Source of the DNA: Azolla caroliniana
Lineage: Eukaryota; Plantae; Polypodiophyta
Assembly (NCBI GenBank): GCA_043228905.1
Contig: JBHGNT010000017.1
Span: forward strand, 18,042,001 to 18,106,000
DNA length: 64,000 bases
Reading direction: 5' to 3'
Position numbers and translations under genes: made by a program. This document shows positions 3,901 through 42,574 of this stretch, in pieces; within the stretch, counting starts at the first letter, position 1, and each line of letters opens with the position of its first letter. A model generated the notes under the pieces. It was not told where the DNA came from. It saw only the letters and a program-made list of their open reading frames with translations, and ran no database searches.

Positions 3901-4550
3901 CTCTCTGAATCGGCGCGCTTCTTCTAGCACTCACTTTCCCTGTGGCCTTTCTTGCCACAGTACCAGCACTCCGCGATGGCCTTCCCTTGCCGATTCTCAT
4001 CGCTTCGACTCCCCCTGTTTCCGGAGGGTCCGGAGTTGCTGTCGGCATCACTTCGGTGCCTTCTTCCTTGATCTCGTCGGCCGCCTCCATTGCGTGCCGA
4101 CTCGCCTCGTCCTCCACGTCCACGGGGCCTATCTCCCTCCGTGTACAACATTCTGCTGTTGGTGTGCGTGCTTGTAGACGCACCCGCGTGGTTCTCCTCT
4201 ACCAGGAGCATTGACTGTAAGTCGAAAAAGGACGGCGTATTCTCCCGGGTACACACAGCCGTCCGGAACGCTCCGAACTTCGACGCCAAACCTCCGAGAC
4301 AGATCTGGACCATCTCACTCTCCTCGATGTTCACCTTTATGGAGGCGAGGGAGTCGCAAATATCCTTGATCTTCGAGGTATAGTCCGCCACCGACGAGTC
4401 GCGTTGTCGTAGGTTGCTCAACTCCTGTCGGAGCTGAAGCTTCTTGGCTGTGGTGCTCGCGGCGAAGATCTTCTTCAGATTTTCCCACACACCATTCGGC
4501 GTCATTGCATCCCGAACATAGCTCAATAGTTGTTCGCCCACACACGACGC
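915..4550 (-). pseudogene. Copia-1 gag-pol (gag zinc knuckle, protease, integrase, RT, start of RNase H) with premature stops and frameshifts
   Basis: CWYCGKKGHRESEC; WYVDSGASNH; WHKRIGH, HSDVWG, SDGGKEY, EQNGVAERKNR; HQMDVKNAFL, SLYGLKQ, YVDD, YTDADWA. Confidence 0.95.
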
Positions 4551-5227
4551 TGTCGGGGTAGTTGTGGTTCGTGCGGCAAAGTCGCGGGGACTAAGGTTAA
4601 GGGGAGTTGAAGAAACTTAACTTTTAATAAGGCTTGTATGGTGATGATAGAGTGGTTAAGGATAGCAAGAAGAAGAGTTACGAGTAATGTGTGTGTGTGT
4701 GCGAGAGAGAGAGATGAGCATAGATAAAAGATAGAGACAATGTATGCTTCAAGAAAGAAGATTGAGACAAAGTATGATTTAATAAGGAAGATTGAGACAA
4801 AGTATGAATCAAGAAGCAAGAGTATTTGATATAAACATGATGTATATTAAAAAGACAATATTTTACCAACTTTACAATCCTTGATCGCAAACTGAACACA
4901 TTCTCTACCGACCCTTGATTCGAACTCTTGACTCCAACTTGGAAACACGAGCCTCTTCACCAACAAGCTAACTTGTTTGTTTTTGTGATTATCTTATTTC
5001 TCTAACTTTCTCTTGATTCCCCTCCTTGTTTTCCCTTTCCCCTCTTTATATAAGTGTTGCCATGCATATGGTAATGTATGGGAGCATGGCATGCATGCAA
5101 TGCATGAGTTACATGTAATGCATGATCGCCATTTGGCGCACATGCATTGCATGTGATGAATGATGGCTATGTATGAAAATAGATATGAGATAATTATAAT
5201 GATGAAAATGCATTCTAAAATAACTAA

Positions 5228-5290
5228 CCTAGCTTAGTGGTGTATGCTTGGTGCTTGGTATACAAGGTTGAGGGTTCAAGTTCCTCAATT
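5228..5290 (+). promoter_or_regulatory. tRNA-like Pol III A/B-box unit in the element A 3' LTR (copies at ~11651-11712 and ~11787-11846 in the 5' LTR)
   Basis: A box TAGCTTAGTGG; T-arm GAGGG-TTCAAGT-TCCTC about 44 nt downstream; antisense to the element. Confidence 0.55.
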
Positions 5291-5391
5291 TTACTTAATA
5301 CAATATATAGCTTCATTCTTATATCATGAAGCACATTTATTACACACTTTTACAACATTTAAGCTCATTTTTATATCGTGAAGCACATTCT

Positions 5392-8300
5392 TCACGACAC
5401 CCACCCCCTCTGAACTTGCACATTGGTTGTGCAGAGTTCATCCAACACTTCTTCCGATTCTTTTAGTTCTTCTACTTCTTCATAAAATTGAGGCTCTAAT
5501 GACTCCCTCCTTTTAAATATTTTAATCCTTTTTCCTGCAATTGGGATACGAATTTCTGTCCCATCTAATTCATTGAGGAAATATGTGGCTTTATTTGTTA
5601 TTTTCCTAACTTCATAAGGTCCAAACCATCTTTTTGCAAACTTCCGAATAGTACTGTATTGATTATCTAGGCTATTATCATATACTAATACCCAATCTCC
5701 CTCTTGCACCTTTCTTGGTCGTATTCTTTTCATCTTGTCAAATCTGTCCTTATTCTTGATTCTTGCCTCTTTCAATCTAGTAGCTGCTTTTTCTATGTCT
5801 TCTATCCTTGATTGAAGTTGTCGTATTCGAACTGCAAGTAAATCTTCCCTACTCATTTCCGATTCCCAAGGCAACACAACCCATGTAGTTATCTTTTCTT
5901 CAATTGGCATTATTGGCTTCTGTCCTGTGATTAATTCTGCAGGCATATATCCAGTAACAGTGTTGTGAGTTGTCCTATCAGCCCATAGTGCATAGGGTAA
6001 GGTTTTTGGCCAATCACTAACCCGTCCTCTACATGCCTTTGCCAAAGCTTTGACTATTGGCCCATGTCCCCTTTCTACCTTTCCATTAGCTTCTGGATTG
6101 TACGCTGTTGTCAAAGAAAGCCGAATTCCTATTTTGTCGAAAAAATCTTGAGCTTCCGCAGAATTGAGTTCTCCCCTATCTGCCACTATCTTCCCGATAC
6201 ATCCATATCTACAAACAATGTCCTCCAAGATGAATTGACATACTCCTAATGTCCCTTTTGTTCGCAATGAACGACCTTCCACTTGATTTGTTAGATCTTC
6301 TCTAGCAAGAACCAAGTATCTCTTTTGTCCTACTCCAAGTGGCATTGTTACCAAATCTATCATCCACTTGTAATGCACCCCCGGTGAGTATGTTGGGTGT
6401 AATTCATCACAAAATTTTACATTTGAATAATATTGACAAGTGGGACAAGTTTCCACATACTTTTTTATTTGCTCATAGTATCGAGGCCACCAAAATCATT
6501 CTTTAATCTTACTGAAAGTGGCCCACACTCCTCGATGACCAGCCCATTCTTTGTCATGCAACTCTCTGATTATCTCCTTTCTTTGCCCTTCAGAACCTAT
6601 TACTCTTTGCGGGTTTCCAGTCTTGGTTTCTTTGCGGGTTTTCGGATGTCGCCATAGATATCCTTCATGTAGGAAGAACTTATGGGCTTTCTTGCGAAAC
6701 TGTGCGAACTCTTTTCCAGATCGACCTTTGTACTTGTCAGGGGTTTGTAGGTATTTCCCTATTTCCTTGAATTCTTCTTCATACTCTTCTTCTAGAAACT
6801 GCATTCCTCCTTCCCGAGTAATGCTTGTGGTAAGGACTGTTTGTTCTTTGTCCTCATCGTCCGAGTCTGGAATCTCCTCTTCCTCTTGATAACATATCTG
6901 CTATTGCATTTCTATTCCCAGAGATATGTTGAACTTCAGGGTTGATTGATCTAATATAGATACACCATCTTAACATGGCTTGATCTGGAATATCACAATT
7001 AGCTATGATACCCAGAATAGGCAAACAATCAGTTTCTATTATTACTTCAGCACCAATTAAGTAATCTTTGTCTGTCTTTACAGCTGTTACTATCCCCCAT
7101 AGCTCTCTCTTCACCTGTGCATATTTTCTTTGTCGACCACTAAGAACCTTTGCCCCGAATCGGACTGGATACCTTTCTTCCCTATCTTGTTGGCTTATCA
7201 CCCATCCAATTCCAATGGGACTAGAGTCTACTGTGAGATATATGGGCCGGGTGTAGTCTGGTTGCTTTAATGGTGGAGCTTGTGCCAAGTAGTACTTCAA
7301 TTTCTTCATTGCCTCTGAATGCTCTTCACTCCATTCAAATGTCTCTCCTTTTCTTAGGAGTCTATATAAAGGTTCAGATAAATGGGCATAATGCGGAATC
7401 CATTTACAGTAAAAAACACATACCCCCAGAAACCTTCGTACTTCTGAGATGGATGTACATTCCTCTTGCATATTTTGAATTGCATTGACCTTGGTTGGGG
7501 ATGGCTTTCTCCCATACGGGCCACACATATGACCAACTATTAATATCTCTTTTGCCCCAAATATTGACTTCGCCCCTGATAAGGTCAAATGCACTTCTTC
7601 CATCCTTGATAGCACCTTCTCACAATCCTTGATATGATCAGCAACGAATTGACGGCAACCACTTTCGTCCAATTCCTCGTTCTTCTCTTCCTCCTTGCAT
7701 CCCTTAATTGGAACATCATCTAGAAAAGGCATTGTAATATGAGGAATAAAATCACGAAGTACCTTGTTCATTCCATTCATCATATACGCCACTGAGTTGG
7801 TCGCTCCTTGCGGCAAGGTGCACATCCGTACTAACCCTATAGGTGTCTTGATAGAAGTTATATCTCGACTTTTGATAGCAAGTTGAAATTGATCATACCC
7901 GGAATAAAGGTCTCCCATTGAATATATAGCTCTTCCTGCAAACATCTCAGCAAACTCATCCACAATTGGCCCTACTCCCGAGTTTCGGATTGTTACCTTA
8001 TTCACGGGTTGCATATCTTGGATAAATCGGAGTCGCCCATCTTTCTTTAACACGGTGAACCATCGACTCGAGTAAGGAGCGTTTGATGGTTCCAAGATAC
8101 CCATCCTTATCTTTTCTTTCAAAAGTTCTAATAGTTGAGGGATTCTAGCCCTAGGCATGGGTATTGGCTTAAAGTTCCATGGAATATGAGGGATAGTGAA
8201 TATAACCATGGGCTCCACAATTTCTGGATCCACACACCCTATTTCCTCCGGTTGGAATGCGAACGCCTTTCCATGCCTTTTTAACATCTCCCTGAACTGC

Positions 8301-8905
8301 TTTTCTTCAGCGGGTAATAGGAAGTCACCCCCTCCTATTTTCATCCCTTGTATTGTTTCCGGAGTAAACACATGTCCTACCTTTCGTGGGTCTCTGATCA
8401 TTGGCTCTGTGGCTGCTTCTTTGATTGCCTTTTCACTATCCCCTGGAAGTGGAGCAGCAATAGGACGAACCTTCTTCTCCACTGTCTTGTACTTTGTTGG
8501 TACATGTGCTTCATGATCCTTTCGAGCAACTTCTTCAATGACCTCATACATCTTGATTGAATGGACAGGAACTTGGATTTCGTTGTCTTCTTCCATTGCT
8601 TCCAAATGAGTTATTGTATCTTCAAAACTTAATTCTTCAAACATATCCTGAATTTCTTCATCATCATCTATTAATCCAGAACACTTAAAGTACTCGAAAG
8701 CATTTTGTATTTTATTATTATTTACTTTTAGTATAAAAGTAGCACCATTAGATGAGATTGTACAAGGAATATCTTTATTTACATTATTATTTATGGGGTT
8801 TTCTTTTATGCTCGGGCTATCACAGCCCCTACCTGTAAAAGCCCTATCTAAAAATCCTGGGAAAACTCTACATCCATCTCTTGAATTGGATGTTCCCTCA
8901 AGCAT
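5392..8905 (-). pseudogene. Element A RT-RNase H-integrase (one frameshift near 6870, one TGA at 6496)
   Basis: MGDLYSGYDQ, LPQGATNS, FLDD; RNase H TVDSS, KRELWG, ETDC; integrase H-H-C-C, MIDLV, ADRG, ANGKVERGH, GPY; no chromodomain. Confidence 0.9.
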
Positions 8906-10962
8906 TCTTTGTTTCTTTCATGGTTGGGCCTCACGGTTAAGAATTGGACAGTCTTTCTTCCATCTTGACTCTTGATTCTCGCGAAAGCCGAACCATCATC
9001 AATAACCTTTGTTTCCATCCTCACTGCGGTGATGTAGGGCTGGCCAAGGATGATGGGGTAGGTTGATCGATCCTGCACAAAGAAATTTTGATTCACCGAG
9101 ACATCACCAATTGTTACCTTCACACTAGGACATGCTCCGAATAGATCCTCCATAGTTTCTGTGGCAACTCTTATTTTCCACCCATGATTCTTATCGATCG
9201 GCCATCGTCCTCGAGCGTAAAATTCCGATGACATCATGTTAATCTCTGATCCATGATCGATCAAAGCAATACATGGAATTTGCTGCTCCCCAATTTTTGC
9301 AGGTGCCTCCGTTGTTGCTCAAGCCCAATGGTCCCTTGTATAGTGACTCCTATCCCCTTCATGGACGCCAACATCATTCTGGTTTTTTACACTTGCAGCA
9401 TTGATGGTGCCACCATACAAATCTTGGAGTGTTGCTGCACACCCTCCCGTAATTTCCTCCGTCACCTGTCTCTTCCTTCTAATAATATCTATGATAACTT
9501 CATGAAATTCTTTCTTTGCTATACCCAACACTTCTCTTAAAGTAAATTCTACCTTACTATTTAATATTCTTGTTTCTAGTACCTTTTTTATATCCGTCGT
9601 TGTTTCTATGTCTGAGGCAAGCTTGAAAGATGGGCCTGTCTTTCCTTTTACTTTATCAGCTTCCTTCGGCTCAATAGCACCCTTTTCCATCTCCCTTCTC
9701 TTTTGTTCTCGTGTCTCATGTCTCTTTGTCGGATCAGCTTCCTCAGCTCTCTTCCGCTTCTCTTCCACTAGCACATCTTGTGCACTCACTTGGGCGAATG
9801 CTGATAGCGCGTCTACTGGATCATTCCATCCAGTGAAGTTTCGTATTTCATCTCCCGCTCTTTTTAATTCATCCACTCGAACCTTCCCTTTTCTTGCATA
9901 ATCCATCACATCTTGCCAAAAGCCAGATCCACCATATGAGTCTTCTACGCACAATCCTAAGGTTGCCACGGATTGTATCGCTTGAGTCGTTTCTCTCTCG
10001 GCATCTTCCATTAGCCTTTTCATTCCTCCTCACCCGAAGTTGAGTTGAAGTGGTTGTCGAGTCTCAGTTGAGTGAATCTTGCCATCTTGATAGTAGATTT
10101 TATTATGATTAAGAGCATCCCTATGCTCTTGACAATCTTTCTTCTGGTGGTCGATACTATCACACCACATACACCTTCGAACCATTCCACCTCCCTGCCT
10201 TGATGAAGTCGAGCTTTGTCCCGATTCTAGCTTCGTCACTTTGATCGACAAGTCTTTCATGCCTTTCACTAATTCGTGTAAGAGTGATTCTTCTACTTTC
10301 TTTTCTCCCGACTCGTTCCCCGTTTCTTCATCATTTCTGTCGGGCAACTCCATAAACCATAACTTTCTTTTGCAGAAATGGGCGCACGCCCTTTTCACCT
10401 CCTCCCAATCTTCGGTAAGTCCACTTGGACTATTCTGATCTTCTAAAAGCATTCCCAAGTCCTTCCTGTCTTTAATATTAGTAGCTTGTAGAAACAATAT
10501 TACTTTATCTGGCACTATTATATTTCTATCTCTAACATTTAGTTGCTCAAATCTTTCAGAAAACTCTTTTAATACTTCCAAAACACTTAAATGTTTATTA
10601 GACTCTACCCAATCCATGAAAGCTCGCCTTGTCATCCTTGACATATCGTTGAGGTTGTATTCATTGAGTAATGCCCTTTCGAATGTTGTCCATGTCTGAT
10701 TCTCCCTTTGAAGATCTTGGATCCTCTCTTGTAGCCCAATCGCAGCGACTCGACTAAAGCTATTAATTTTTGTAGCTTCGTCGACACCGCGTTTAAGCAT
10801 TTCTTCATTATAAATCTTCAGAAATCTTGTTAAATTTATACCTTCGAAGATTCCTACTCGTGCGAGAATATTGTCGACGGCTTTGTCGATGCTTGCCATC
10901 ATCCCTTGTTCCCGCATCACTCGTTCCATCATTGTACACATAAGCCTCATTTGCTCCTCCAT
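8848..10962 (-). pseudogene. Element A gag-protease frame with two in-frame TGA stops
   Basis: ORFs 10962-10030, 10023-9319 and 9264-8848 share one frame; CMWCDSIDHQKKDC knuckle; IDHGSEIN protease motif. Confidence 0.85.
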
Positions 10963-12848
10963 TTCTCCTCGTCGCCGCCTTCACGTTGGGTTCACCAAAT
11001 GTGTCGGGGTAGTTGTGGTTCGTACGGCAAAGTCGCGGGGACTAAGGTTAAGGGGAGTTGAAGAAACTTAACTTTTAATAAGGCTTGTATGGTGATGATA
11101 GAGTGGTTAAGGATAGCAAGAAGAAGAGTTACGAGTAATGTGTGTGTGTGTGTGCGAGAGAGAGAGATGAGCATAGATAAAAGATAGAGACAATGTATGC
11201 TTCAAGAAAGAAGATTGAGACAAAGTATGAATCAAGAAGCAAGAGTATTTGATATAAACATGATGTATATTAAAAAGACAATATTTTACCAACTTTACAA
11301 TCCTTGATCGCAAACTGAACACATTCTCTACCGACCCTTGATTCGAACTCTTGACTCCAACTTGGAAACACGAGCCTCTTCACCAACAAGCTAACTTGTT
11401 TGTTTTTGTGATTATCTTATTTCTCTAACTTTCTCTTGATTCCCCTCCTTGTTTTCCCTTTCCCCTCTTTATATAAGTGTTGCCATGCATATGGTAATGT
11501 ATGGGAGCATGGCATGCATGCAATGCATGAGTTACATGTAATGCATGATCGCCATTTGGCGCACATGCATTGCATGTGATGAATGATGGCTATGTATGAA
11601 AATAGATATGAGATAATTATAATGATGAAAATGCATTCTAAAATAACTAACCTAGCTTAGTGGTGTATGCTTGGTGCTTGGTATACAAGGTTGAGGGTTC
11701 AAGTTCCTCAATTTTACTTAATACAATATATAGCTTCATTCTTATATCATGAAGCACATTTATTACACACTTTTACAAATAAATAGCTTAGCCTAGTGGT
11801 ATGTACATTGTACATCGTATATAAGGATGTGGGTTCAAGTCTCTCAAATATTATTAAATACAACATTTAAGCTCATTTTTATATCGTGAAGCACATTCTT
11901 CACGACAACGCGAAGCAGTATAATACCCTGCTCACCGATTGCTCCCATGACGGGAAGTCTCTATGTGTCGATTCGGGTGCCGCGTCATTAGCTCCTTTGA
12001 CATAACTCCAATAGTCGTGCCCGAGCAGGTACTGGTGCATCTTGTAAGACCAAGACGCGTAGTTGGTTCTGTCGAGCTTCTCTGTTGGAAGCGAGCTCGC
12101 CATGCCTCTATCCATTGTTCTTGTTCTTCTTCGTCAAGCTGTGTCGGCTGCAGAGAGGTTCTCAACCCTTGCGCTCTGATACCATGTAAAAAGTAACGTG
12201 CGGAAGCAAGTATGAAGACCGAACAGAAGGAAGAAAACTCAGGTTTAATGGAGAGCTTGAGCTTACGCAGTATACGTAGTATACGCTGTCGTGCCTTTCG
12301 GCTTCGGATCGTTGCGTGAGTCGGGTGGGAACCGCTGGGGTTTTGGACTAGGAAGAGGAGAGTTTTAAGGCTAATAAGAATATAAATATGTTGTAAGAAA
12401 GAGTTATAGCAAACTCGTGAATCCCACGAGTGTATTGTATTAGATTAATCAATATGAATATAAGAATATAAACTTCGGTTGAAAGAGAATGATATAGAAT
12501 TCTCGTGAATCCCACGAGTATAGTTTATTAATTGGTGTTTTTTAGAAACATATCCAGTTTCCAAATATTTTTCACACACAATTACATTGTGCTTCCCATC
12601 CTTATGTAGTGATGAGGAAGTCTTAGTAATCCATGCTTTTTCTCTAACTATAGACCCCATGCTTTTCCTATAGATAGACTATATGCTTTATCTAAAGTGA
12701 TCATGCTTTTTCTAACTTGTGCGTTTTTTATCATGCACGCTAGATGTGTATGTGTAGCTTTTTCTTTTGTTATGCGTTTTTCTAATGTTTATCCTAGCGT
12801 GAATTTACCTTTCTATGTGGGACATCTATGCTTTAACACTAATGAAAT

Positions 12849-12910
12849 GCTAGTGTAATGGTAAGACATTACATTATTAACATGGAGGTGCAAGGTTCGA
12901 ATCTTGCCCT
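12849..12910 (+). promoter_or_regulatory. tRNA-like Pol III A/B-box unit in the element B LTR (copies ~15640-15700 and ~19568-19628)
   Basis: TAGTGTAATGGTAAGACA ... GCAAG-GTTCGAAT-CTTGC with tRNA-like spacing. Confidence 0.55.
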
Positions 12911-13014
12911 ATACATGTTCCATTTATTTTGCTATTTTCTTCTATTTCTTCATTTTTTATTGAATCTAATACTATATACGTTTTTCACGTAGTGTACAAA
13001 ATACACTACGACAC

Positions 13015-15039
13015 TCACCCCCTCCAAACCCGCACATCCTCCGGTATGTGCCGAAGTTGTTGGTGTTTGTTAGTCTCCTCCGTCCGGTCTCTACCCGATT
13101 GGTTTCGTTGCCGGCTCGTAGTACCCTCGACTTCTCTTGTTATGTTGACTTTGTCTCTCCATTTGGAGCACATCCATTCTTTCCACTCGAACCATTGTCG
13201 ACATCCGATCCACCATAGTCTTCGTTCGCTTTTTGCATGGCCCGCTTGGTCCTTGTCATCCGCGGTAGTATCTTTTCTTGCCCTCTTTCTTTTCTTCATC
13301 AATCTCGACTTCTTTTCGGATTTTCGGTTTAGTCGGATTAGCTTACTTCCGATTCGGTCTCGTCGGATCGTCTTTCGTTTAGTTCGGCTTCCTTTCCGAT
13401 TTGTATTCGGTCGATCCGGACTCGGTTGATCGGTTTTTACCGATTCAGTGCTCTTTCGGGTCGGTTTCTTTTCTTTTCTTTTCGTCCGGATTTGCTTTCT
13501 TTTCTTCGTTTTCACCTGCCTTGTCCGGTTCGACTTTCGGCACTTCTTTCCGTTGTTCGCCACGTAGGTCCTCCGATATGTGCTCGTTGTTCGGTCCTCG
13601 TGTGGTTGTAATGCATGCTTCTTTTCTCGCCGTAGCGCGTGCTTCTTTATTCGCCATAACACACGTTTCTTTATTCGCCGTAGAGCGTGCTCTGTATTAC
13701 GCGCTTCTCCCGTCGTAGACCCGACCTCCGCATTGTCGCACTTTCTTTTAGATTGGAATTTCGGATGGATCATTTTCCATCCGAACCGACTTCCGACTTT
13801 ACCTTCCTCGCCGCCATCTCCCGTCTCTCCGGTCTCACGTTGGTTCTCGGACACAACCGCCGAAGTCTCTAGATATTGTTGGCATGAATCCTCGGTATTA
13901 CCTTCTTTCGTAGTTTCACCCTTAGCATTCTTCTCGGCTATCTCTTCATCGTATTCGTCGGCTTCGACATTCGTTTTCTCTCCGCCACCTTCCGTCTCTT
14001 CGGTCTCACGTTGCCTTTCGATCGCAACCGCAGGAGTCTTTGGAATCAGTGGTGGGGAAGTCTCGATATGGCAATCCGCCATTGATTCATCCATAGCCAC
14101 CTCCGATTCGATTTCGTCTTTTGTGGCTACCTCCTTAATCACATCCGCTTCACACTCTTTATCTGCATCAATTATGCAAACATCTATTATGCTTACCCCT
14201 TTTTGACCCGATGTCTCGGGCACTTGTATCCCGAAATTTCCTTCTACACTTGCATTATCGGCCTTATCCTTCGCCATCGTTCTTTCACAAGACGAGTGGG
14301 TGTCTTGTTCCACTCTTTCTCCCGTGGTACCATCATGTTGTATTTCGGCCTTCATATTGGCTTCATCGTTTTTCCTCAATCGACCATCCTTCATGGGCCA
14401 TGTCGTTGTTGACGAGATTCTCAGCTTCCTTTCATCATGTCTTCGGCATACCCTTTCGACTTTGGCCCAATCCTCGGTAAGGCCGTTCGCACCGTCATCA
14501 TCTTCGAGTTCGATCCGAATGTCCATCCTTTCTTTTCGATCGATCGATTTTACGAACATTAGGACTTTATCCTCTCCCACCAATCGTTGTTCCCGCTTCG
14601 AGAGTCGAGCAAAACGATGCTCGAACTCTAGGAATGCTTGTGTTGCACTTCGGTGGGTCTTCTTCGATGCCACCCATTCGTCGAATTCTCGCCGATCTTG
14701 TCCCTTCGATCTCTTGTAATCATATGCCTCTCGTAAAGCTTCTTCGAATGACCCCCATGTCGAGTTTTGTTGCCGTATCTTGTGGATTCTCTCTTGTAGC
14801 TCATCCGTGGCCACCCGATTGAAGGATGTCACTTGCAATCCTTCCGGTATCCCACATCGTATCATCTCCGCCTTGTAGTCACGTAGATAGCGTGACACAT
14901 CGTTTCCGTTGAATTGTCCGTTTTGTTGTACGAGCCGCTTTACTGCCCCCGTGATCTCCGACATCACTCGTTGTTCTTGTAGCATCCGCTCGAACATCAT
15001 CATCATCGTTATGCTCATTGCCTCTTGTTGATTCTCCAT
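13015..15039 (-). CDS. Element B Gag-derived protein (~674 aa from ATG 15039) with acidic, basic and Trp-rich C-terminal segments
   Basis: N-terminus aligns by eye with element A Gag (FNGNDVSRYLRDYKAEM vs FEGINLTRFLKIYNEEM; GLTEDWAKVERVC vs GLTEDWEEVKRAC); the ORF fills the whole internal region. Confidence 0.75.
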   Translation of the reverse strand: MENQQEAMSITMMMMFERMLQEQRVMSEITGAVKRLVQQNGQFNGNDVSRYLRDYKAEMIRCGIPEGLQVTSFNRVATDELQERIHKIRQQNSTWGSFEEALREAYDYKRSKGQDRREFDEWVASKKTHRSATQAFLEFEHRFARLSKREQRLVGEDKVLMFVKSIDRKERMDIRIELEDDDGANGLTEDWAKVERVCRRHDERKLRISSTTTWPMKDGRLRKNDEANMKAEIQHDGTTGERVEQDTHSSCERTMAKDKADNASVEGNFGIQVPETSGQKGVSIIDVCIIDADKECEADVIKEVATKDEIESEVAMDESMADCHIETSPPLIPKTPAVAIERQRETEETEGGGEKTNVEADEYDEEIAEKNAKGETTKEGNTEDSCQQYLETSAVVSENQRETGETGDGGEEGKVGSRFGWKMIHPKFQSKRKCDNAEVGSTTGEARNTEHALRRIKKRVLWRIKKHALRREKKHALQPHEDRTTSTYRRTYVANNGKKCRKSNRTRQVKTKKRKQIRTKRKEKKPTRKSTESVKTDQPSPDRPNTNRKGSRTKRKTIRRDRIGSKLIRLNRKSEKKSRLMKKRKRARKDTTADDKDQAGHAKSERRLWWIGCRQWFEWKEWMCSKWRDKVNITREVEGTTSRQRNQSGRDRTEETNKHQQLRHIPEDVRVWRG

Positions 15040-16127
15040 CTCCTTGCCACCCGCCTTCACGTCGGGTTCACCAACTGTGTCGTGCCTTTCGGCTTCGGAT
15101 CGTTGCGTGAGTCGGGTGGGAACCGCTGGGGTTTTGGACTAGGAAGAGGAGAGTTTTAAGGCTAATAAGAATATAAATATGTTGTAAGAAAGAGTTATAG
15201 CAAACTCGTGAATCCCACGAGTGTATTGTATTAGATTAATCAATATGAATATAAGAATATAAACTTCGGTTGAAAGAGAATGATATAGAATTCTCGTGAA
15301 TCCCACGAGTATAGTTTATTAATTGGTGTTTTTTAGAAACATATCCAGTTTCCAAATATTTTTCACACACAATTACATTGTGCTTCCCATCCTTATGTAG
15401 TGATGAGGAAGTCTTAGTAATCCATGCTTTTTCTCTAACTATAGACCCCATGCTTTTCCTATAGATAGACTATATGCTTTATCTAAAGTGATCATGCTTT
15501 TTCTAACTTGTGCGTTTTTTATCATGCACGCTAGATGTGTATGTGTAGCTTTTTCTTTTGTTATGCGTTTTTCTAATGTTTATCCTAGCGTGAATTTACC
15601 TTTCTATGTGGGACATCTATGCTTTAACACTAATGAAATGCTAGTGTAATGGTAAGACATTACATTATTAACATGGAGGTGCAAGGTTCGAATCTTGCCC
15701 TATACATGTTCCATTTATTTTGCTATTTTCTTCTATTTCTTCATTTTTTATTGAATCTAATACTATATACGTTTTTCACGTAGTGTACAAAATACACTAC
15801 GACAACGCGGGAGAGACAGAGAGAGTGAGAGAGAGAAAATACAAGAACTATATTCAACAAAAGATCTCAATTCACTACTCTATACATATGTGTGTTCCAT
15901 GAACACTTTTATACAAGTCCTCGAAGGACTGACTGAAGTACTGACCGTACTTCAATGCTCTTTAAGAGCTCCTACACTAACTACACTAACTCCCAAATAT
16001 ATTCCTCACGGAATATCTTTCCTAACGACCTCCTGGTTTACGCACTCGGCTTAACCGATCGGTCCCAACCAATCTGGTCCTAGGCTTCTTCAACCGATCC
16101 GGCCGATGTTGAGCTTGTCTCTCAACA

Positions 16128-24693: not shown

Positions 24694-27600
24694 TCATGCC
24701 CGTAACATACTCCCCCTCTTTAAAACATTGCACTCTTGCAATGGAAAGTTAGGGAAGTTAGTTCTTAGAGTCGTTTCGCGTTCCCATGTGGCATCCTTGA
24801 TTGATTTATCCATCCATTTTATTTTAAATTCTCGGATTTCCCTAGCACGTAATTTTTTTGTTTTAACATCGAGAATTCTTTCTGGTACATGTGGTTTAGA
24901 AGATAAATCTTCAGAAGTAACCAGAGTTTTAGTTGTGACTGTATTGTCGCCAGAACCTAGAAGTTCTTTTAGACGACTTACATGAAAGACTGGATGGATT
25001 CCAACACCATCGGGAAGAGCGAGACGATAGGCTGATGATCCAATGCGTTTGAGGACTGTAAAAGGTCCACAAAACCGTGGGGCTAACTTAGCGCACTTAC
25101 CCGTAGACAATGTCTTAGAATTGTGAGGTACACGTAAAAATACCTTCTGTCCAGGGCTGAATACACGAGGTTGCCTGTGATGATCGGCATAAAAACGCGC
25201 TCTATCTTGAGCTGTTTTTATATTATCCCGTGCAATATGCAACATATCTTGCATATCCCGAAGAAAGTTTTGCGTACTTCGCAACTCATCATGATGTATA
25301 TTAACATCAATCGGGGCTCGTGGCTGAAATCCATACATCAACATAAAAGGACTATATCCCGTCGACGTATGCTTGGAGCTGTTATAAGCAAACTCCAAAA
25401 TTGGGAGGTAACGTTCCCATTTTGTTGGTTTTGCACCAACGTATGCTCGAAGCATGTCCTCAATAATTTGATTTACTCGTTCTGTCTGTCCATCGGATTG
25501 AGGATGATCCGTGGAGCTCATGCTCAACGTAGTTTCTAACTTCTTAAAGACTTGCGTCCAGAAGTCACTAGTAAACTTCGGATCTCGGTCACTCACGATA
25601 TCCATCGGTAACCCGTAAAAACGAAATAAGTCATCAACGAATTGGTAAGCCAATTCAGGAGCTGTTACCGTGGCAATAAATCTGGCCATTTTAGTTAGTC
25701 TGTCAACCACAACCCATATGGCATCATGACCTTTTTGGGTGCGAGGAAGGCTAACAATAAAATCCATGGATATACTTTCCCACTTATTATTGGGAATGTC
25801 CAAGGGATGTAAAAGTCCTTCGGCTTTAAGTCGCTCGGCTTTGTTAACCTGACATTGGTGACATTTAGTCACATAGCTATGTATGTCAGGACGCATCTTA
25901 GGCCAATAAAATTGAGTGGAGATGAGAACGAGTGTACGATGTATTCCAGGGTGCCCTGCTGAGGGTGCATCATGGCATTCAAAAAGAATTCTCTTTTTGA
26001 CCTCAGGTAAATCTGGAACACAAACCTTCCCATTACGGTAGAGCAGACCGTTAGCAATGTGGAAGTATTCCTTCGAGGGTGTGGTGGTGTCTGTTCCAGA
26101 CTCGACTCTTGCCCAGTATTTTGCAAAATAATTGTCATCAGGATACTTTCCTCGAAGGTGATCATAAAGATCTGATGTTATTTCAGTGAAGCTAAGCATG
26201 TTAACTTCACGGATGCGACTTAGTGCATCAGCGACAGTATTCATGGAACCTTTACGATATCGTATGGAAAAATCAAAGTCCTGGATGAGATCAGCCCATC
26301 GTGCCTTACGACCTTTCAGGTCTTGTTGGTCACAAAAATATTTCAAGGACTCGTGGTCCGTAGTTACCACAAAGCGATTTCCATAAAGATAATGGCGCCA
26401 TGTTTTGAGCGCATGTATAACCGCAAATAATTCCTTTTCTTGAACGGTATACCGACATTGAGCAGAATCAAGTTTCTTACTCTCGAATGCTATTGGTTTA
26501 CCATCTTGATACAAGACAGCACCTATAGCATAATCGCTTGCGTCGGTTTCAACCTCAAAAGGTTTTGAAGGATCGGGTAAAAGAAGTGAAGGAGCCTTGC
26601 ATACCAAGTCCTTGAGTTCCTTAAAGGCGAGGTCTAGTGTAGCATTCCACACAATAGGTTTTGTAGACTTACGCGTTTGACCTTTTAGAAGATCAGTAAA
26701 CGGCGTCGTCAATTGTGAGTAATTACGAAGAGATTTTCGCAAAAATCCGACAAAACCAAGGAATGATCGAACTTCTCGAATATTCCGAAGAGTGGGCCAA
26801 AGCTTGATTTTCTCGATGCGAGAAGGATCAATTTCAACTCCTCGTTCGGTTATGAGATGTCCAAGATAAGTAATTGATTTCTTGAAGAACTCACATTTTG
26901 AGATCTTCGCGTAAAATTGTTTGTCACGCAATATTTGTAAAACAAAGCGGACATGTCTAGCATGTTCTTGTAATGTACGGCTATAAACTAAAATATCATC
27001 TAAGAAGATAACGACAAATTTTCCAAGTTGTTCTCGGAAAATGTCATTCATTTCTTGTTGAAATGTAGCCGGAGCATTGGTCAAACCAAAAGGCATAACC
27101 AAAAACTCATAATGGCCGTAGCGCGTACGAAATGCTGTTTTAGGAACATCGTCCTCACTTATTCGTATTTGATGGTAGCCAGTACGGAGATCAAGTTTCG
27201 TAAAATACCGAGCTCCCTGGAGACGGTCAATTAGATCGTCAGCCCGGGGCAATGGGTACGAATTCTTGATTGTCACTTTATTCAAGCGTCGGTAATTAAT
27301 ACACATACGCCATGTGCCCTCTTTCTTTTTAACCAAGAGAACTGGTGCACCCCATGGAGATTTACTATAACGTATATAACCCATTCGTAAATAGTCTTTA
27401 AGTTGCTTAGCTACCTCATCCTCTTCAGATCGACTTAGGCGATACGGAGGTATACTAATGGGTGCAATGCCAGGTACAATATCTATACGATGGTCTATAT
27501 TACGTTTAGGAGGTAAACCATCGGGTACTTCACTCGGAAAAACATCACGAAAATCGTTTACGATTTCATCAAGTTGTTTTTGTTCAAAATATGTTAATTG

Positions 27601-29118
27601 ACCCGAGACATTATCGATATTGTAAACGTGAATGTCCGGATCAAGTACACAATAAAATAACGTAGAACAAGACAACTCGGATATTGATGGACACGAGGAA
27701 ACAATCGAGAGGGATTGTTTTTTTACACATTGAATAAAATGCGTACAATCGTTGAGTACAAAAGAAATGGAATGGCGAACCCAATCAATAAATAAAGAAG
27801 AGCTTTTATTATAAAACCAGGGATAACCCAGTATTACATCGGTGGTACTAAGATTCATTACATGGAAGTCTACTTCCTCTATATAGGTATCAATAGAAAT
27901 TCCTAAAGAATGAATCGCCCCGTTGATGTGTTGTACTCTTCCATCAGCCAAGTGCACCGTGTAGGTGTGATCACTTACGGTGGGTTGGATTCCCCATATC
28001 TGTACCAAACGATCATTCACAAAATTGTGTGAGCTTCCCGAATCAAATAAAAATTGTACGGGAGATCCATTGATATACCCGTTTGCACGTAGTAAATCAT
28101 TGGGACCCAATACATAATGAGGGAAAGAACATTGACAATTACTCAAATGATGTGTATAGACCTGAAGGACATTAGGAATCTGACCTTTATGGTCTGTAGC
28201 TTTAGGTTTGGCGTCGTGCTCTTTTCGTTGGAGCTTACGACATTGCTCTTTTGTATGACCCTTCTTTTTGCAAAATACGCAAAAAGGATGTTGTCGCTTA
28301 TTATCGCGATCCATGAATTCGTTGGGTGTCTTGCGTTTCCCAACGAATTGCGACTGCTTAGTCCCGGGCGCTTCGTTGGGTTTGTTATGGTCCTTCTTCG
28401 AAGTGCGTTGATAGCGAAGAACTATCTCAACGGCCTCTTCGAAGGATTTTGGATCCTTATCGTGCACTATCCAGTGATAGTCCGAATTGGGGATGCCATT
28501 GACAAAACAAGCTATTAACCAATTGTCCCCTTCTAGACCCGATTTTTGGATTTGGGTTCTAGCATGGTGGACATAGTCTTCTAGCGAGGAAAACTTCCTG
28601 CTAGAGAGGTTCATTAAAGCTTGTGCTGCCTCGGTTCGAGAGGGAGGTTGTAGAAATTGACCCTTGAAAACTGTGACAAAGTCTGTCCAGGTCTCGGGCA
28701 ATCTCCCCAAAGTTCGGAGGCCACGCCACCAGGCGGCGGCCTTACCCCCTAGTTCTCGGCCGACATATGCAATCTTCGTACTATCTGGCGTGGGATAGAG
28801 CTCAAAATGAGACTCCCATCGGCCCAGCCACGTGCAGATTGCTTCTTCGGTTCTTTCCTTTTTATCTCCCATAAATGGCTTTACGACAAATGATGGTTCA
28901 CCCTGACGCTCATCAGGTCTATTAATCTCATTTTGGAGACTAATGACTCGTGCCTCGAGAGCACTTTGAGATTGCCGAAATTCGGTCAACTGCTGCGCGG
29001 TTGAACTAAGGAAATGTTGTACTTGTAAAATATACGCCTCAATGGACATTGTCCCAGGAGGATTTCCTTGAGGTCTTTCCGCTTGAGCAGAGGGCATCGG
29101 GTCGTTATTCTGAGCCAT
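24694..29118 (-). CDS. Intact single-ORF Gag-Pol polyprotein (Gag, PR, RT, RH, INT, chromodomain); likely start ATG 29118, ORF open to 29208
   Basis: [14 protein letters not shown]; LFDSGS; [14 protein letters not shown]; [10 protein letters not shown]; ISMDFI/SDRD/TERVN; PERILDVK...FKIKW...ATWE. Confidence 0.95.
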
Positions 29119-30315
29119 TGAATGATTATTTCTGGCAAAGAAATAAGATAAGGTCAGACAAATAGTCATAACATCTTGTCGTGGTGTAAACATATCATGG
29201 GCAAACATTAATCGATATCATGATCTCACGTCAATACCCCTTTAGACGTATGAGATGAGGTTCAAGATCAGGTTACTATGGTAACACAGAGGTGTTTTAA
29301 AAACCATGGGGGTGACAAATGAATGCCTTTCCCTGATCTCTATATCGATTTTTTTCATGGCGGCTCCCCGAGGCTCAACCATGTATGTTCGCGTCATGAA
29401 TAGTTTATACACGAAAAAAATGTTAACAATAACTATGTTTCTGTGCCCACATATGTGGTTTCGGCTCTTTAAGTCCTATTACGAGGACCCCGAAGTGCAC
29501 TTAGACCTAAAGTCTAAACATGTATTATAGTCATATGTATCAACGATGTTGTATGGTGTTGGTCATATTTGAACTCGAGACCTCGAGGACAAATACATTA
29601 AACACTTGAGCCAACCAAGTATATTGCGCGTCTTGAATGTTTAATGTTTGAGGCGTATTCGAGATATGCGAGGCATTTGCCCCTATATGTTTTTGTTTAA
29701 AAGAAACATATAGGTCAAGTGGCCTTATTTCTCCCTCATTTATTACCCACTATGGTTGTACGCTACCTAACCTCAAGCCTCGTAATTACGATGGCATATG
29801 CCAAAGTGTAACCTAATGGTCAAGCCGAATGAGCCCTTGTGTCTTCGTAGGCTCATGTGGCCCATCACATGGTCACGTCATTACGAATGCCACTCGTAAG
29901 AACGAGCTCATGGTGGCATCGTATCCATGTAACGAGGGGAGATGTTGGATACGTGTGTCATTAGAGCGACCCTACTTGATGTGGATCAAGCCCGACGTAT
30001 TCAACATCATTTTGGCTATACGAGGTTCGTTACGTAACGAAATATCAAAGTGACCAACGGGAATTTCAACAATAAAAATTGTTGATAAAAGGGATGGTGA
30101 CAACGCCATTCTCACAAAAATGTGAGGACGGCCACCAAAATCCTCTCCCCAAGTAGGAAAACATTTGATATGAATCACGTAATCTAAAATATACACATAT
30201 GTCAATATATCACATATATACGATCAGAGACGTATATAAGTGACCACATATGCGTATACTAAATGAATCGTTTTTTTTTTATATAGCCAACAATGATGTA
30301 TTCGGGATACGTAAT

Positions 30316-30560
30316 CGAGGCATATACCTCTACGCACACGAAACATCCGAAAATAAGGTTAAGCGTAATTCGCAATTGAGGTATTGACCTCTTACGCATA
30401 GTAAATCCAACGCATATCAATTCGAACGAATCGAGGTATTGACCTCGTACGCGAACGTAACATATGTTCGTGAACGTAATACGCAATTGAGGTAGTAACC
30501 TCGTACGCATACGACACTCATCACATATGATTTATATGTCAAACGAGGTATTGACCTCGT
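30316..30560. repeat. Five repeated short hairpins GAGG(T)-loop-(A)CCTC at 55-61 nt spacing in the element I leader
   Basis: Copies near 30316, 30378, 30432, 30489 and 30543, e.g. ACGAGGT-ATTG-ACCTCGT. Confidence 0.75.
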
Positions 30561-33196
30561 GGACATATATAAACGTTTAAGATAACCAATTAAATACCAC
30601 GTCAACATCATTGAATATATGAAAAAAAAACTACATATTAAGTATACACATGTATAGAAGGGAGAAGAAAAATTAGATAAAAAATTAAGGAAAATTTACC
30701 GAAGTTCTTTCGCTAATCCTTGTCTGCATGAAGGCGACCGCACAACGATCAATCGCCATCCCACGCGAAGACAAAAAGAAAACCAAAAGAAACGTTAGTA
30801 CATAGGCTCTGATACCAAATATTAGAGATTAGGTACTAAAGTAAGCATAAAATAAGGATATATCAATGATAGATCTAGAAAGAATAGAGAGAAAAGAGAG
30901 AAAGAAGGGTGCCGATCCACCCGACCACCCCCGAGCGAAGGGATCGAGACGGACTCGAGCCTCGATCGGCGTCCCATACCACCGCCTTGGCGTCGAGTCG
31001 TACCTGGACAATAGCGCGCTTGCTACAAGAGTCGTTCCACTCACGGACAGAGTCTCGACGTAGTCAATGCATGCCCAAATGAGGGTAGCTAGGCCTCTTA
31101 TTTATAGTAATTCTCAAGGCCCCCAGCCATGTTCACACTTGGCCTCATGGGTTGTCTCAATCCCGAGGATTAAAAGTAATCCTCCCCTTCTTTAGACTCT
31201 TTGTTTAACCCTCACACTTATCCACGTGTATAGAATACTACGACAATTCTCACCACGGGATATTATATGGTCATGCCCGTAACACGAACTATGAGGAGGG
31301 AATGTCGGCACACAGAGGTGCTGAAAGGGAGTATAGGCGCGAAGGATGGTTGCCGGTTAAGGTGATCTCGAACGGAAGGTTGGAGAGGGATCCTCCACAC
31401 CGGTTTCGGAGACTTTGGAAGTTCAAACCGCCGAGGCAATGTAAGAACAAGGAGAAGGAAGGTGGTGGCAAGGGGACGAAGGCAACGGGCAACAACACGG
31501 GATGGCAACCGGGACGACGTGAAGGGCACCGACATGGAGGTCGGGGTGACGGCACGCTCTACTGAGAGAGAGCGCGACGAGCGAGGTAGAAACAAGGAGC
31601 GCATAATGGGGTCACCTAAGGACCGAAGAATGAGTGCGCATTCGGAGGACGACAATGACACATGGGTAGCGCCTACCGGAGGCAAGCGTGGATCAGATGG
31701 AGCCGATGGATCAGGGCCGGTAAGGAGCCAACAAGACGGTCGGGTGTCAGGAAGGCAGAGAACCCAGTTGATCACCGTCGCCGAAATCTCTCACCCTTTT
31801 CTTTCTTGGCACGTATCGGTGGACGTGCAATTTGGTGGGGGGCAGATGTCGTGAAGATTTCCAGCTACGGTGTGAAACTGGGGTGGAAAGGGCAAGTCGG
31901 TGGTGTGCAACATGGGCACATGTATAGTAGTAATATGGTATATAGAATAAGGGGAGAACTTATCCCACATTGTAACATCTCTCCCTCCTTGGGCTATAAA
32001 AGGAAGGGAGGGGTCACTTTGGAAGGGGTTGCCAATTTTGGAGTTAGAAGGGTATACCACTTAGGTCTAGGGTTTGGTAGTGTTCTTCCTCTTCATCTTA
32101 TTCTTGTTCCCTTAGGGTTTCTACTTGGGTCTTTTCACCCTATTTCGTTTAGGGTTCCATTTTGAGCTTTCTTCATCATTGTCTCGTGGGTTTGGTTCAT
32201 TCTTTTGAGTGGAGGTTAGTATTCTGTTTAGGTTTTTCTCCCGGAGAGAGTTCGTGCGAGTTAGGGTATGTTGTTTAGGGTTTCGGTTGCTACCCTCTCT
32301 TCTTCGTGTGAGAGTTTGGTTTGGTTTGAGGGTTCCTACAACAATGGGTTTAGCCATTCTGGTGGCGGTGCTTGGAGGTTCGGTTTCCTCTCCTCGATGG
32401 AGAGCGTTTCGCATGGCGGCCGGTTTGAGAAGGGAGGACGAAGCGGCACGGGAACACTCCATCGTCTTCGGGGCGTGACCAATGATGGACGTCGCGGTCC
32501 CGGCGGCCCATTTGACTCACCTTCACCAGTCCCCTATTCTTATCTTGAGATATTAACCGATTGTTTGTATTAGTCACTGGATTCAGGGCATATAACCATC
32601 TTGTTGTAAAGCTCTTGTAATATATATTCATGTTAGTGTATATCTATCTTCCTTGTAACATATTTGAGTCGGGTCCATATTCGCGTTGAACTGTTTTGTG
32701 AAACCCTACATTCCTTGGAGCCGGAAGCCGATTCCAGACCGCAACCCACAAAGCCTAAGGACTCCACCATTCGTCTCCCTAGTCCAAGACCCCCGCGGTT
32801 CTTCCTAGGATCCTACACGTACTCGCAGAATACCGCGACACCGTGCTCTTGTTCCCGGCACCGCCGTGTGCATCCTTCCGCCGTCCTTGTTCAGCACCGC
32901 CTGTGCCGAACACTGTCCTGTACTCATGCTTTGAATCGGCCCTTAATGGCCACATGCACGTCTCTCGTTCCGCTCCCAGGTGTGCCCTTATTAGCTCACC
33001 GCTCCTTGCTTGCCCTTATTGGCTCCTTCCGAAACTGTAACCGGCCGGTAAGGGTTCCACACTTCGTCAACTTCGGGCTTGCTGATTCCCGTCTCGCCGG
33101 ATCTTGATCCGCTCTTTTGTGTTGCCGGGTCCTGTTTCCTACGGCCACCGTCCTTCTCACTCGGTCTCACGATGTCGTGTCGGCTCGAGCTGCCGG

Positions 33197-33555
33197 TGTC
33201 GCGAAAATAGGAAGAGGACACGTGAACTTGAGGTAGGACCCTAGGGCCTCCGACTAAAGGATATCACATTCGTGCGTTTATATCTTTAACAATTAATGGA
33301 AATAAGAAATTTAATAATTTTCATTAACAAAGGAAAATAAATTACAATATGTCCCAAGATTGGGATTCAAAAGTTTTAGGTTTACTGTGATTAATAGAAA
33401 AGAAAAATTAGGGGTTTTGAGAGATATGGCTTTCGTAAGGAAAATTAGGGTTTTTGAGTGTTATGGCTTCCGTAGGGAAAATTAGAATTAGGTTATACGA
33501 GAGATATCGCTTCTGTAGGGAAAATTAGGGTTTTTGGGCCGGCACGTACGCTACC
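33197..33555 (-). mobile_element. Truncated LTR related to element E, inserted in element D
   Basis: Starts TGTCGCGAAAATA like 34696 and 48819; left flank CCGG; right end fused to copia integrase sequence. Confidence 0.7.
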
Positions 33556-36122
33556 TTCGATTAGATGGAGGCAAAGAATACTTTTCGGATGAGCTCACGG
33601 AGTATCTCTGAAAAGAAGGTATCCGACGAGAATTCTCATGCCATCACACGCCTCAACAAAATGGTGTAGCAGAGCGCAAAAACCGGCAGATTGTTGAAGT
33701 CGCACGGGCCATGATGAATGAGAAGAACCTGCCAAAATCGTACTAGGCAGAAGCAACAAACACGGATGTATACCTCATGAACAGGTGGACAACCTCGGGA
33801 GTGCACGACATAACTCCTCATGAGAAGTTCTTTGGAAAGAAGTCTTCGCATGTCCGCATTTTCGGCTCAATCGCCTATGTGCACATTCCCGACGATACGC
33901 GGCAAAAGCTCAATCCAAAGTCAGAGAAATGTATCCTCGTAGGATACTCGCTCGAACAAAAGGGGTACAAATGCTACAACCCATCTACCCGAAAAGTTCG
34001 AACAAGTCGAGACGTAGTCTTCGACGAATACGCATTCTGGTACACACCAAAGACGATTCCGATTACGGCCCCAACTGACCCTAATTTTGCCGTAATCGAT
34101 ATGGAGGAAGAAGATCATCTCTTGCATATGCACGAAGAAAGCCCAATTACGACACGGATGAGTAGACCACAAGAGCCCTCAAGTGATCAAAGCACATCTC
34201 GGCCAAGTCCAAAGCTAGCCAAAGGGAAGGTGAAAATGCAGGAATACGAAGATCATTTCGAACTTCACAATGAGTTCGAAAACCTTGACATACATATAGA
34301 CGGCATGAAGAAAGCTCTCATATCCACAAACGAAAAGCCGCGCCGCTCCACGCGTGAAAAGAACCCCGTAACCTGCTACGGCTACGACGAATACATGGCG
34401 TATCATTATGCGTTCATGATGAAGGTAGCGTAAGTACGGGAACAGGACACACTGTCCAAAGCCACAAAGGATCCACGATGGATCAACGCGATGAATGAGG
34501 AGATGGAAGCATTATGCAAGAACGAGACATGGGATCTTGTTCCTCTCCCCCCGAACAAGAAAGTGATTGGCTACAGATGGATTTACAAGGGGAAGCAGAA
34601 CATCGATGGCACCATAAATCACTTCAAAGCACGTCTTGTCACAAAAGGATACGCGCAAACCCACAACATAGATTACGAAGAAACGTTTGCCCTGGTGTCG
34701 CGAAAATACGACAAGGATACGTGAACTTGAGGCAGGACCCCGGGGCCTTCGACCAGAGGATATCAAATTCGTATATTTATCTTAAAGAATTAATGCAAAA
34801 TGAGAAAGATTGACAAATTTCACTAACAAAGGAAAAGAAAGATTACAATCAATCCCAATATTGGGATTACAAATAAGTTTGCTAATGGAGATTACTAGAG
34901 TAATAGATTAGAAGAAACTAAGATATGGATTTGATAGAAAATTAGGGTTTTTTTGCTTTGATGAGAAAATTAGGGTTTTTTAGTGATATGACTTTTCTAA
35001 GGAAATTAGGGTTTTCGGGATCCTATGGCTCCGATAAGGAAATTATGTGTTTCGGGATCGTATGGCTTCGATAGGGAAATTATGGTTTACTCGAGAGATA
35101 GATTCCTTCCCGTATGGAAAAAGAATCGAATTATGAGTGATAGATCCCTCCCCTTTACACTTGCATGAAGGAACTTCAATTTGCATCTCCAATTCCCTTG
35201 CATGCGTCCCACGTGGCGTTTTCTTTAGTTGCATGATCTCTACCTTTTCTTTGCATGCCTTCCAACTTTAGTTGCATGCGTCCACATGGCCTTTACTTTA
35301 GTTTCCTTTACTTTACTTTAATTAGCCACATGATCCTGTCATCCGTCTATCTCAATCGCCGCCCATCCAATTCGTCGGGTTTGCGTCCCACCTTGTTCGG
35401 TCGCCGGTTCCGCCCAATCACCGGTTCTGTCCGGTCGCCGGTTTCCGGTTTGATTACCGGCCAATTAGGGATTGATTTCCGGCCAGTTCTGGTTTGATTA
35501 CCAGCAGATTCGGGATTGATTTCCAGCCGGTTCCGGTTTGATTTCCAACCAGTTCCAATTTGATTTCCGGCCGGTTCTAGTTTCATTACCGGTCGGTTCC
35601 ATTTTATTGCCAGCCAATTTTGGGAACTTAGCCATATTCATCCATCTAGACAAAGTGGCCCAAGTGCTCATAGCACAAATGAAAAATGATGGTTCTCAAT
35701 GTGCTTATATAGCCAGAGCCTAAGTTTCCTATCTGGGATAAATCATAGTTCTATTTTCCCTATCTTCTCAAATTTTATGTTCATATAACTTAATATGTAG
35801 TTGTCCATTTTGTGTGTAGTAAAATGCGTTTTGAAGCTCTTGAGTACATCCATCTTTCTATAACAATCCACTAATCTAATCTAAAATACTTATTTCATTA
35901 TTTAATTTTTACATAGTATGAGAAGATTCACACGACATTCACCCACACCAAACCTGCACATCCACCGGTATGTGCCAATTTTGGTGAGGCTCCACTTTTG
36001 ATTACTTTATGTTAAGACTAACGTGTGGAAGCGTTTAGACAAACAAGATTACTGGTAGAAAACATAAAACAGAAAAATAAGGAGTTAAACGCAAGAGATA
36101 CTCTTACGCGGGAGAGAGCGAG

Positions 36123-36171
<49 letters not shown>

Positions 36172-42570: not shown

Positions 42571-42574
42571 GTGG

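What the first reader, a model, noticed from the sequence alone, without database searches (positions are those of the whole stretch)
4547..34700. A gypsy superfamily that appears to integrate at CpG-centred 4-bp targets inside other TEs
Seen: flanks of the seven TGTCG...CGACA insertions are A ACGC/ACGC, B ACGC/ACGC, C CCGT/CCGT, D left GCGA, 33197 fragment left CCGG, solo LTR ACAG/ATGG, and E left CTGG. Inference: ACAG and ATGG both derive from ACGG by opposite-strand CpG deamination, and CTGG sits in the copia TFAPV motif (here TFALV), so it was CCGG. All seven therefore fit NCGN (five directly, two by reconstruction). Other LTR elements here have 5-bp TSDs (CTTTA, TGTGT, CGAAC, AAACC, GTAGA). 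The element A integrase has no chromodomain, so sequence or methyl-CpG preference could be an alternative way of targeting heterochromatin.
Basis: partly seen in the sequence, partly recalled or inferred. Interest (0 to 1): 0.8.

Follow-up and report, generated by a model that had tools for sequence, protein, structure and literature searches.

The report
Fern retrotransposons that insert at CpG
Thousands of copies of one jumping-gene lineage in this likely fern genome sit at four-base targets with CG in the middle, a habit already published for the moss Phygy lineage to which they likely belong; their integrase likely reads the CG itself, and whether it also senses methylation is untested.

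Summary
In 117 elements outside the window the flanking 4-mer centre is CG in 96, TG/CA in 18 and other in 3 (local CG 5.1%). Of 3,831 non-PPT ends of one LTR terminus, 2,980 (78%) are followed by NCG. It is not a new superfamily. Element A has a 4-bp NCGN TSD, a tRNA-Trp PBS, no chromodomain and no extra RNase H: the profile published for Phygy (Neumann 2019, PMC6317226). Clade membership against reference Phygy sequences was not tested. B and E are gag-only derivatives; C and D show no gag-pol similarity. The host is fern-like. Methyl-CpG targeting is untested and not needed: repeats hold 69% of CGs, so CG choice alone puts 73% of sites beside repeats, against 85% observed (P about 0.02). 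A sister clade has 4-bp targets centred mostly on TA (7 of 8 readable). This scan noted NCGN targets before in a fungal genome (e1-10582392). Verdict: real, already described in moss, mechanism open.

The parts
4551..11907 (-). Element A: Phygy-type Ty3/gypsy, 7,357 bp, LTRs 4551-5399 and 11002-11907, TSD ACGC; inserted in a copia gag; gag-pol interrupted by in-frame stops and a frameshift
5392..6855 (-). A integrase: H2C2 zinc finger, DDE core (D47, D106, E141 of the 5395-6495 frame), GPY-type SH3-like C-terminal domain; no chromodomain
6854..10980 (-). A gag-like ORF (10030-10980), DUF4100 (9319-10029), likely protease (8848-9318, no Pfam hit), RT-RNase H (6854-8917)
10981..10997 (-). A primer-binding site complementary to host tRNA-Trp(CCA), 16 of 18 (B, C, E 17 of 18), 4 nt from the LTR
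12287..15804 (-). Element B: 3,518-bp gag-only derivative, identical 727-bp LTRs, TSD ACGC; ORF 38.5% identical to A gag over 192 aa; in the same copia host as A
18707..20591 (-). Element D LTR (C-like family), left flank GCGA, inserted in the chromodomain-coding end of an old chromovirus; internal part continues 20592-21514 and 32845-33196
   Evidence: the chromodomain label is read from sequence and recalled
18971..19730 (.). B-like solo LTR inside the D LTR; TSD ACAG/ATGG, ancestral ACGG per uninterrupted paralogues
21515..32840 (+). Element C: about 3.8 kb without nested inserts, no similarity to A gag-pol, tRNA-Trp PBS at about 22972, TSD CCGT; inserted in D's internal region
24243..31284 (-). 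Control element: chromovirus with chromodomain, tRNA-Met-type PBS (label recalled), 5-bp TSD CGAAC, nested in C
33197..33538 (.). E-type LTR fragment, left flank CCGG, in D's internal region; other end not seen
34696..49570 (-). Element E: gag-only derivative, LTR 34696-35937 and truncated LTR 48819 to about 49570, left flank CTGG (paralogue CCGG), in a copia pol; holds nested copia elements

Best explanation
These are non-chromodomain Ty3/gypsy elements and their non-autonomous derivatives that sit at 4-bp VCGB targets, likely members of the Phygy lineage, and their integrase likely selects the central CG by reading the DNA sequence itself rather than a methyl mark. Shown: the target spectrum, the shared tRNA-Trp PBS, PPT and TGTCG/CGACA termini, and a PFV/Ty3-like integrase fold. 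Inferred mechanism: a 4-bp stagger needs a sharp bend at a central pyrimidine-purine step, as in the PFV intasome (consensus VYRB). This lineage narrows YR to CG through base contacts; candidates by alignment are the residues after the second catalytic Asp (DRGE, where E aligns to PFV A188) and the extended SH3 loop before RWFGPY. One integrase would mobilise B, C, D and E in trans. Nesting in other TEs follows mostly because repeats are 2.3 times richer in CG than non-repeat DNA, likely helped by selection against genic insertions. C-to-T decay of TSDs shows methylation after insertion, not before.
For: 96 of 117 elements have CG, 18 have TG/CA, against 5.1% local CG. 2,980 of 3,831 genome-wide non-PPT ends are followed by NCG. 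23 of 34 auto-paired ends are identical over 4 bp and 0 over 5 bp; 9 of the other 11 differ only by C/T or G/A transitions. The youngest A/B ends: 59 of 64 CG and 0 TA, although TA is 1.7 times commoner than CG, so flexibility alone is not enough. 90 of 96 CG sites are VCGB, matching the PFV rule (PMC4422553 passages). Chromovirus control: 0 of 25 ends have CG within the first 4 bases. Flank CpG o/e 0.94 equals that of CG-weighted random sites (p=0.73). CG per bp is 0.052 in repeats and 0.022 outside. The sister clade has central TA in 7 of 8 readable targets. ZAM binds CGCGCg directly (PMC2527525 abstract) in Drosophila, which largely lacks CpG methylation (recalled). Best structural matches are the PFV target-capture complex and Ty3.
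Against: Targets lie beside detected repeats in 98 of 115 cases (85%), above the 73% for random VCGB sites (Fisher p=0.009; block bootstrap about 0.02), so something beyond CG density may act. None of the 16 ORFs beside the 17 non-repeat flanks hit Pfam, so no insertion in a clearly unmethylated gene was found. One sister-clade element with a DGGxEN motif has a GCGG target, which weakens the DRGE candidate. LTR-NCGN-LTR stacks look 2-6 times commoner than CG-proportional choice predicts. No reference Phygy sequence was in any tree.
Confidence: 0.7

Rival explanations
1. The integrase prefers methylated CpG (5mC contact or easier bending) and uses it in place of a chromodomain to reach silenced DNA.
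For: 85% of targets are beside repeats, against 73% expected. No host-gene hit among the non-repeat flanks. No chromodomain. TSD and LTR mismatches are rich in CpG/CHG transitions, so these regions are methylated.
Against: Decay shows only post-insertion methylation. The chromovirus control is similar (16 of 23 beside repeats; p=0.13). A fern has 88.87% mCG with CG gene-body methylation (PMC9122828), so mCG would mark heterochromatin poorly. Sister integrases choose TA. No methyl-binding domain was seen.
Confidence: 0.18
2. The CG is read directly, but a second step (the acidic C-terminal tail, a host factor, or affinity for LTR ends) tethers the intasome to TE islands.
For: Residual repeat excess. 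45 places with LTR end-VCGB-LTR start and 0 in the control. 21 of 2,980 ends are followed by TGTCG, about 17 of them true LTR termini, against 3-7 expected. Far ends carry the same TSD in several loci.
Against: The expectation rests on a rough count of 13,000-33,000 termini and ignores clustering and retention bias. The tail (residues 332-367) is low-confidence in the model.
Confidence: 0.1
3. The CG centre is an artefact of CG-rich surroundings, of boundary calling, or of selection after random insertion.
For: The window and the flanks are CG-rich (4.0% and 5.1%).
Against: Enrichment is at least 15-fold, at one offset only (105 of 128 at offset 2; at most 14 elsewhere). It is absent from chromovirus ends in equally CG-rich flanks.
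Confidence: 0.01

Closest known systems
Phygy (non-chromovirus Ty3/gypsy, Physcomitrium patens; Neumann et al. 2019, PMC6317226)
   Same: 4-bp NCGN TSD, tRNA-Trp PBS, no chromodomain, no extra RNase H or extra ORF, short element; frequent nesting in chromoviruses (PMC6911290 passages), as for D here
   Different: Fern-like host, whereas Phygy was described as species-specific. A is 7,357 bp, under the 7,656-9,968 range. Several high-copy non-autonomous families are present. Named relatives occur in Riccia, Calypogeia and Adiantum.
Ginger1 DNA transposons (PMC2836005)
   Same: Gypsy-like integrase with GPY/F, TGTNR termini, 4-bp TSD CCGG (75%) or CCGT/ACGG (24%)
   Different: Ginger1 is a TIR DNA transposon without RT. 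The spectrum here is broader and led by ACGT. Relatedness of the integrases was not tested.
Prototype foamy virus intasome (PMC4422553)
   Same: 4-bp TSD, VYRB consensus, best structural match to A's integrase
   Different: PFV has a weak YR preference; here it is a near-absolute CG.
ZAM errantivirus (PMC2527525)
   Same: LTR element whose integrase binds a CG-containing target directly
   Different: Insect element with a CGCGCg site; relatedness not tested.
TatI (PMC6317226 supplement)
   Same: 4-bp TSD and tRNA-Trp PBS
   Different: TatI carries an archaeal-type RNase H, absent here, and no NCGN preference is listed for it.

Membership tests
Phygy | 4-bp TSD with NCGN motif | tested here: met
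Phygy | PBS complementary to tRNA-Trp | tested here: met
   16-17 of 18 match to a host tRNA-Trp(CCA) gene
Phygy | Ty3/gypsy order GAG-PROT-RT-RH-INT with no chromodomain, aRH or extra ORF | tested here: met
   (intact relatives P0293, P0294, P0310 show no RNase_H or Chromo hit); the protease is placed by position only
Phygy | Length 7,656-9,968 bp | tested here: inconclusive
   A is 7,357 bp and other A-family pairs 7,218-7,406 bp: just under a descriptive range taken from one moss
Phygy | Monophyly with P. patens Phygy in RT/RH/INT trees (the formal definition) | not testable with these tools
   no named Phygy reference was returned; trees lack one
TatI | Archaeal-type RNase H in pol | tested here: not met
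Chromovirus | Integrase chromodomain | tested here: not met
   absent in A, present in the 24694-29217 ORF; A RT is 26% identical to it
Ginger1 | TIR DNA transposon without RT | tested here: not met
   direct LTRs, PBS, PPT and RT are present

The most novel reading that the evidence does not exclude
A lineage of 4-bp-stagger gypsy integrases has switched its central target dinucleotide between branches (TA in the sister clade, CG in seedless plants). The plant branch reads methyl-CpG, which makes it a chromodomain-free route into silenced DNA that avoids CpG-poor gene space and duplicates its own target at every insertion.
Probability: 0.18. Interest if true: 0.8.

Novelty: new member of a known kind. 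Interest (0 to 1): 0.35.

Why it matters
The NCGN habit is one sentence and one table cell in the 2019 survey, and my searches found no follow-up. This genome supplies about 3,000 sites from one terminus alone, extends the lineage to a fern-like host, and shows a passive route to gene avoidance: non-repeat DNA is CpG-poor. The TA-centred sister clade gives a natural pair for finding what makes an integrase dinucleotide-specific. If methylation were read, it would be a new targeting route for LTR elements.

Tried and rejected
Bisulfite runs: none was listed; this is no evidence either way. A wider palindromic target: no position beyond the 4-mer exceeds 0.35. DRGE as the CG determinant: not supported cleanly (L280). 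Horizontal transfer from fungi: one named fungal relative (Smittium, 37%) joins the plant clade on a long, compositionally odd branch, so no claim is made. Ylt1 as closest relative: the passages read gave no TSD and no sequence was compared. ESM Atlas gave only generic integrase and RT clusters. Cluster look-up gave no organism names. Search of earlier findings by sequence found nothing. Contig C124 duplicates the window and was dropped from all locus counts; it could not be dropped from the genome-wide pattern counts. Pfam was run on 45 ORFs from 17 low-repeat random loci, out of 120 ORFs from 40 loci. Of 80 sister-clade loci, 34 of the longer ones were examined and 13 showed LTR-like pairs. 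Random loci were drawn with approximate contig lengths, so some contig ends were under-sampled. The per-element supplement of PMC6317226 (Additional file 1) was not seen; it may bear on TSD detail and host range.

Full report
1. Observation. The window is a nest of LTR elements on contig C17 of a 523-Mb genome. A host TBL gene at 59849-60913 is closest to named fern proteins (Adiantum 68%, Ceratopteris 65%, seed plants mostly 50-60%), so the host is likely a fern. All seven flanks are as reported. A, B and C have identical NCGN 4-mers on both sides. The solo LTR has ACAG/ATGG, and uninterrupted D-LTR paralogues carry ACGG there. E's CTGG corresponds to CCGG in the other copia RT of the window. 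D, the 33197 fragment and E are one-sided. Four of the five 5-bp TSDs were paired; GTAGA was not.

2. Genome-wide test. LTR searches and 40 random 10-kb loci gave 152 distinct outer ends outside the window: 126 CG, 22 TG/CA and 4 other at positions 2-3. One end per element gives 96, 18 and 3 of 117. Background CG is 5.1% in the flanks and 3.7% in random DNA. These loci are the best BLAST hits, so they lean young. An unranked count avoids that bias: the terminus shared by A and C/D-type LTRs occurs 5,584 times (control 3), 1,753 face the PPT, and 2,980 of the remaining 3,831 (78%) are followed by NCG. Of 34 auto-paired ends, 4 of them in the window, 23 match over 4 bp and none over 5 bp. Nine more differ only by transitions and 2 do not match. 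Decay rises with age: TG/CA in 2 of 39 A ends, 2 of 37 B, 8 of 36 C and 9 of 27 E. The motif is VCGB (90 of 96; ACGT 26 against 5 expected). Chromovirus ends show no CG centre (0 of 25).

3. What the elements are. A encodes a gag-like protein, DUF4100, RT, RNase H and an integrase with a DDE triad, and has no chromodomain or extra RNase H. Its frame is interrupted by stops and a frameshift. B and E carry only a gag related to A's; C and D show no gag-pol similarity. A, B, C and E share a PBS matching a host tRNA-Trp(CCA) gene at 16-17 of 18 bases. Named relatives are in Riccia, Calypogeia and Adiantum (RT region 41-75% identical).

4. Known. Neumann et al. 2019 (PMC6317226; passages, section 9 and supplement file 3 read) state that Phygy elements prefer NCGN: 186 elements, 4-bp TSD 100%, tRNA-Trp 81%, no extra domain. 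Jedlicka et al. (PMC6911290, passages; author name recalled) report Phygy's 4-bp TSD and its nesting in Tcn1 chromoviruses; D likewise sits in an old chromovirus. Every testable Phygy feature is met except that the length falls just under the range. Monophyly with reference Phygy was not testable. A search for NCGN with retrotransposon returned only that survey and one unrelated paper. Phygy with fern and LTR returned two papers; one, read in passages, only lists the name, and the other was seen as a listing. Searches for methyl-CpG targeting found nothing relevant by title. Most subscription papers are outside this library.

5. Mechanism. The integrase model (mean pLDDT 79) matches the PFV target-capture complex and Ty3 best. 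For PFV and other 4-bp retroviruses the target is bent at a central YR step, with T and A disfavoured at the edges (PMC4422553, passages). VCGB is a subset of that rule. Flexibility alone does not explain it, because TA is never used by young A/B copies (0 of 64). I infer added base-specific contacts. Direct readout of CG-containing targets has precedent in ZAM (PMC2527525, abstract) and, for TSD sequence, in Ginger1 (PMC2836005, passages). A sister clade from unnamed metagenome contigs (integrase about 30-41% identical; hosts unknown, possibly fungal) has 4-bp targets CTAC, CTAA, GTAT and GCGG on both sides and CTAT on one side in 4 more. One further element was unresolved, and three of the TA cases form one clade. 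The central dinucleotide therefore seems to differ by branch, which fits intrinsic readout.

6. TE nesting and methylation. In random DNA, detected repeats are 49% of bases but hold 69% of CGs. Targets lie beside detected repeats in 98 of 115 cases, against 293 of 400 random VCGB sites, 226 of 400 uniform sites and 16 of 23 chromovirus sites. The excess over VCGB sites is modest (block bootstrap P about 0.02). It could reflect selection, library bias or extra targeting. Low-repeat loci include host genes (5 of 17) and old TEs; those with gene hits have CpG o/e 0.33-0.72. A tree fern has 88.87% mCG with gene-body methylation (PMC9122828, passages), so mCG would be a poor heterochromatin label there. 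No methylation data were listed. The methyl-CpG idea stays open at about 0.18.

7. Side lead. Each insertion duplicates its target. A strict pattern finds 45 places where two LTR ends are separated by one VCGB, several with the same 4-mer at the far end. About 17 of 2,980 ends abut another LTR, against 3-7 expected under rough assumptions. This is suggestive only.

8. Verdict. Real and strong; already described for the moss lineage; new here in host range, scale, non-autonomous families and the TA-centred sister clade. Interest 0.35.

Noticed in passing
window 24243-31284; L123-L150: A young, high-copy chromovirus family (2,396 first-look candidates) has LTRs ending TG...TA rather than TG...CA in the copies read, with 5-bp TSDs. 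TG/CA-based finders would miss it.
   Followed up: partly
L207-L246; 45 places genome-wide: Two Phygy-type LTR ends separated by a single VCGB 4-mer: insertion into an older element's TSD, across families, with one apparent triple (L209); roughly 2-6 times the expectation.
   Followed up: partly
window 42377-44747: A 2.4-kb insert with a long RT-like ORF (YIDD motif, Penelope-like by recall; no Pfam or PDB hit) is flanked by a 484-bp, 99.6% identical duplication of host copia DNA (41893-42376 and 44748-45231) and carries 40-bp tandem repeats.
   Followed up: partly
window 34692-34710: The copia paralogue's sequence right after E's target CCGG matches E's LTR start over 10 bases, offset by 2. 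No general resemblance of flanks to LTR ends was seen.
   Followed up: partly
window 10998-11001, 15074-15077: The PBS lies 4 nt from the LTR in A, B and E (6 in C), which may imply a longer than usual overhang for 3' processing.
   Followed up: no
G000:C17:11937607-11952490 (L024-L027): A tandem array of B-family elements sharing LTRs at about 2.8-kb spacing.
   Followed up: no
L206: Three tRNA-Trp(CCA) genes in tandem about 700 bp apart.
   Followed up: no
G000:C124: This contig duplicates part of the window at 100% identity; likely an assembly duplicate.
   Followed up: no
L247-L326: Sister-clade gypsy elements in metagenomes with 4-bp TA-centred targets, CTAT most often.
   Followed up: partly
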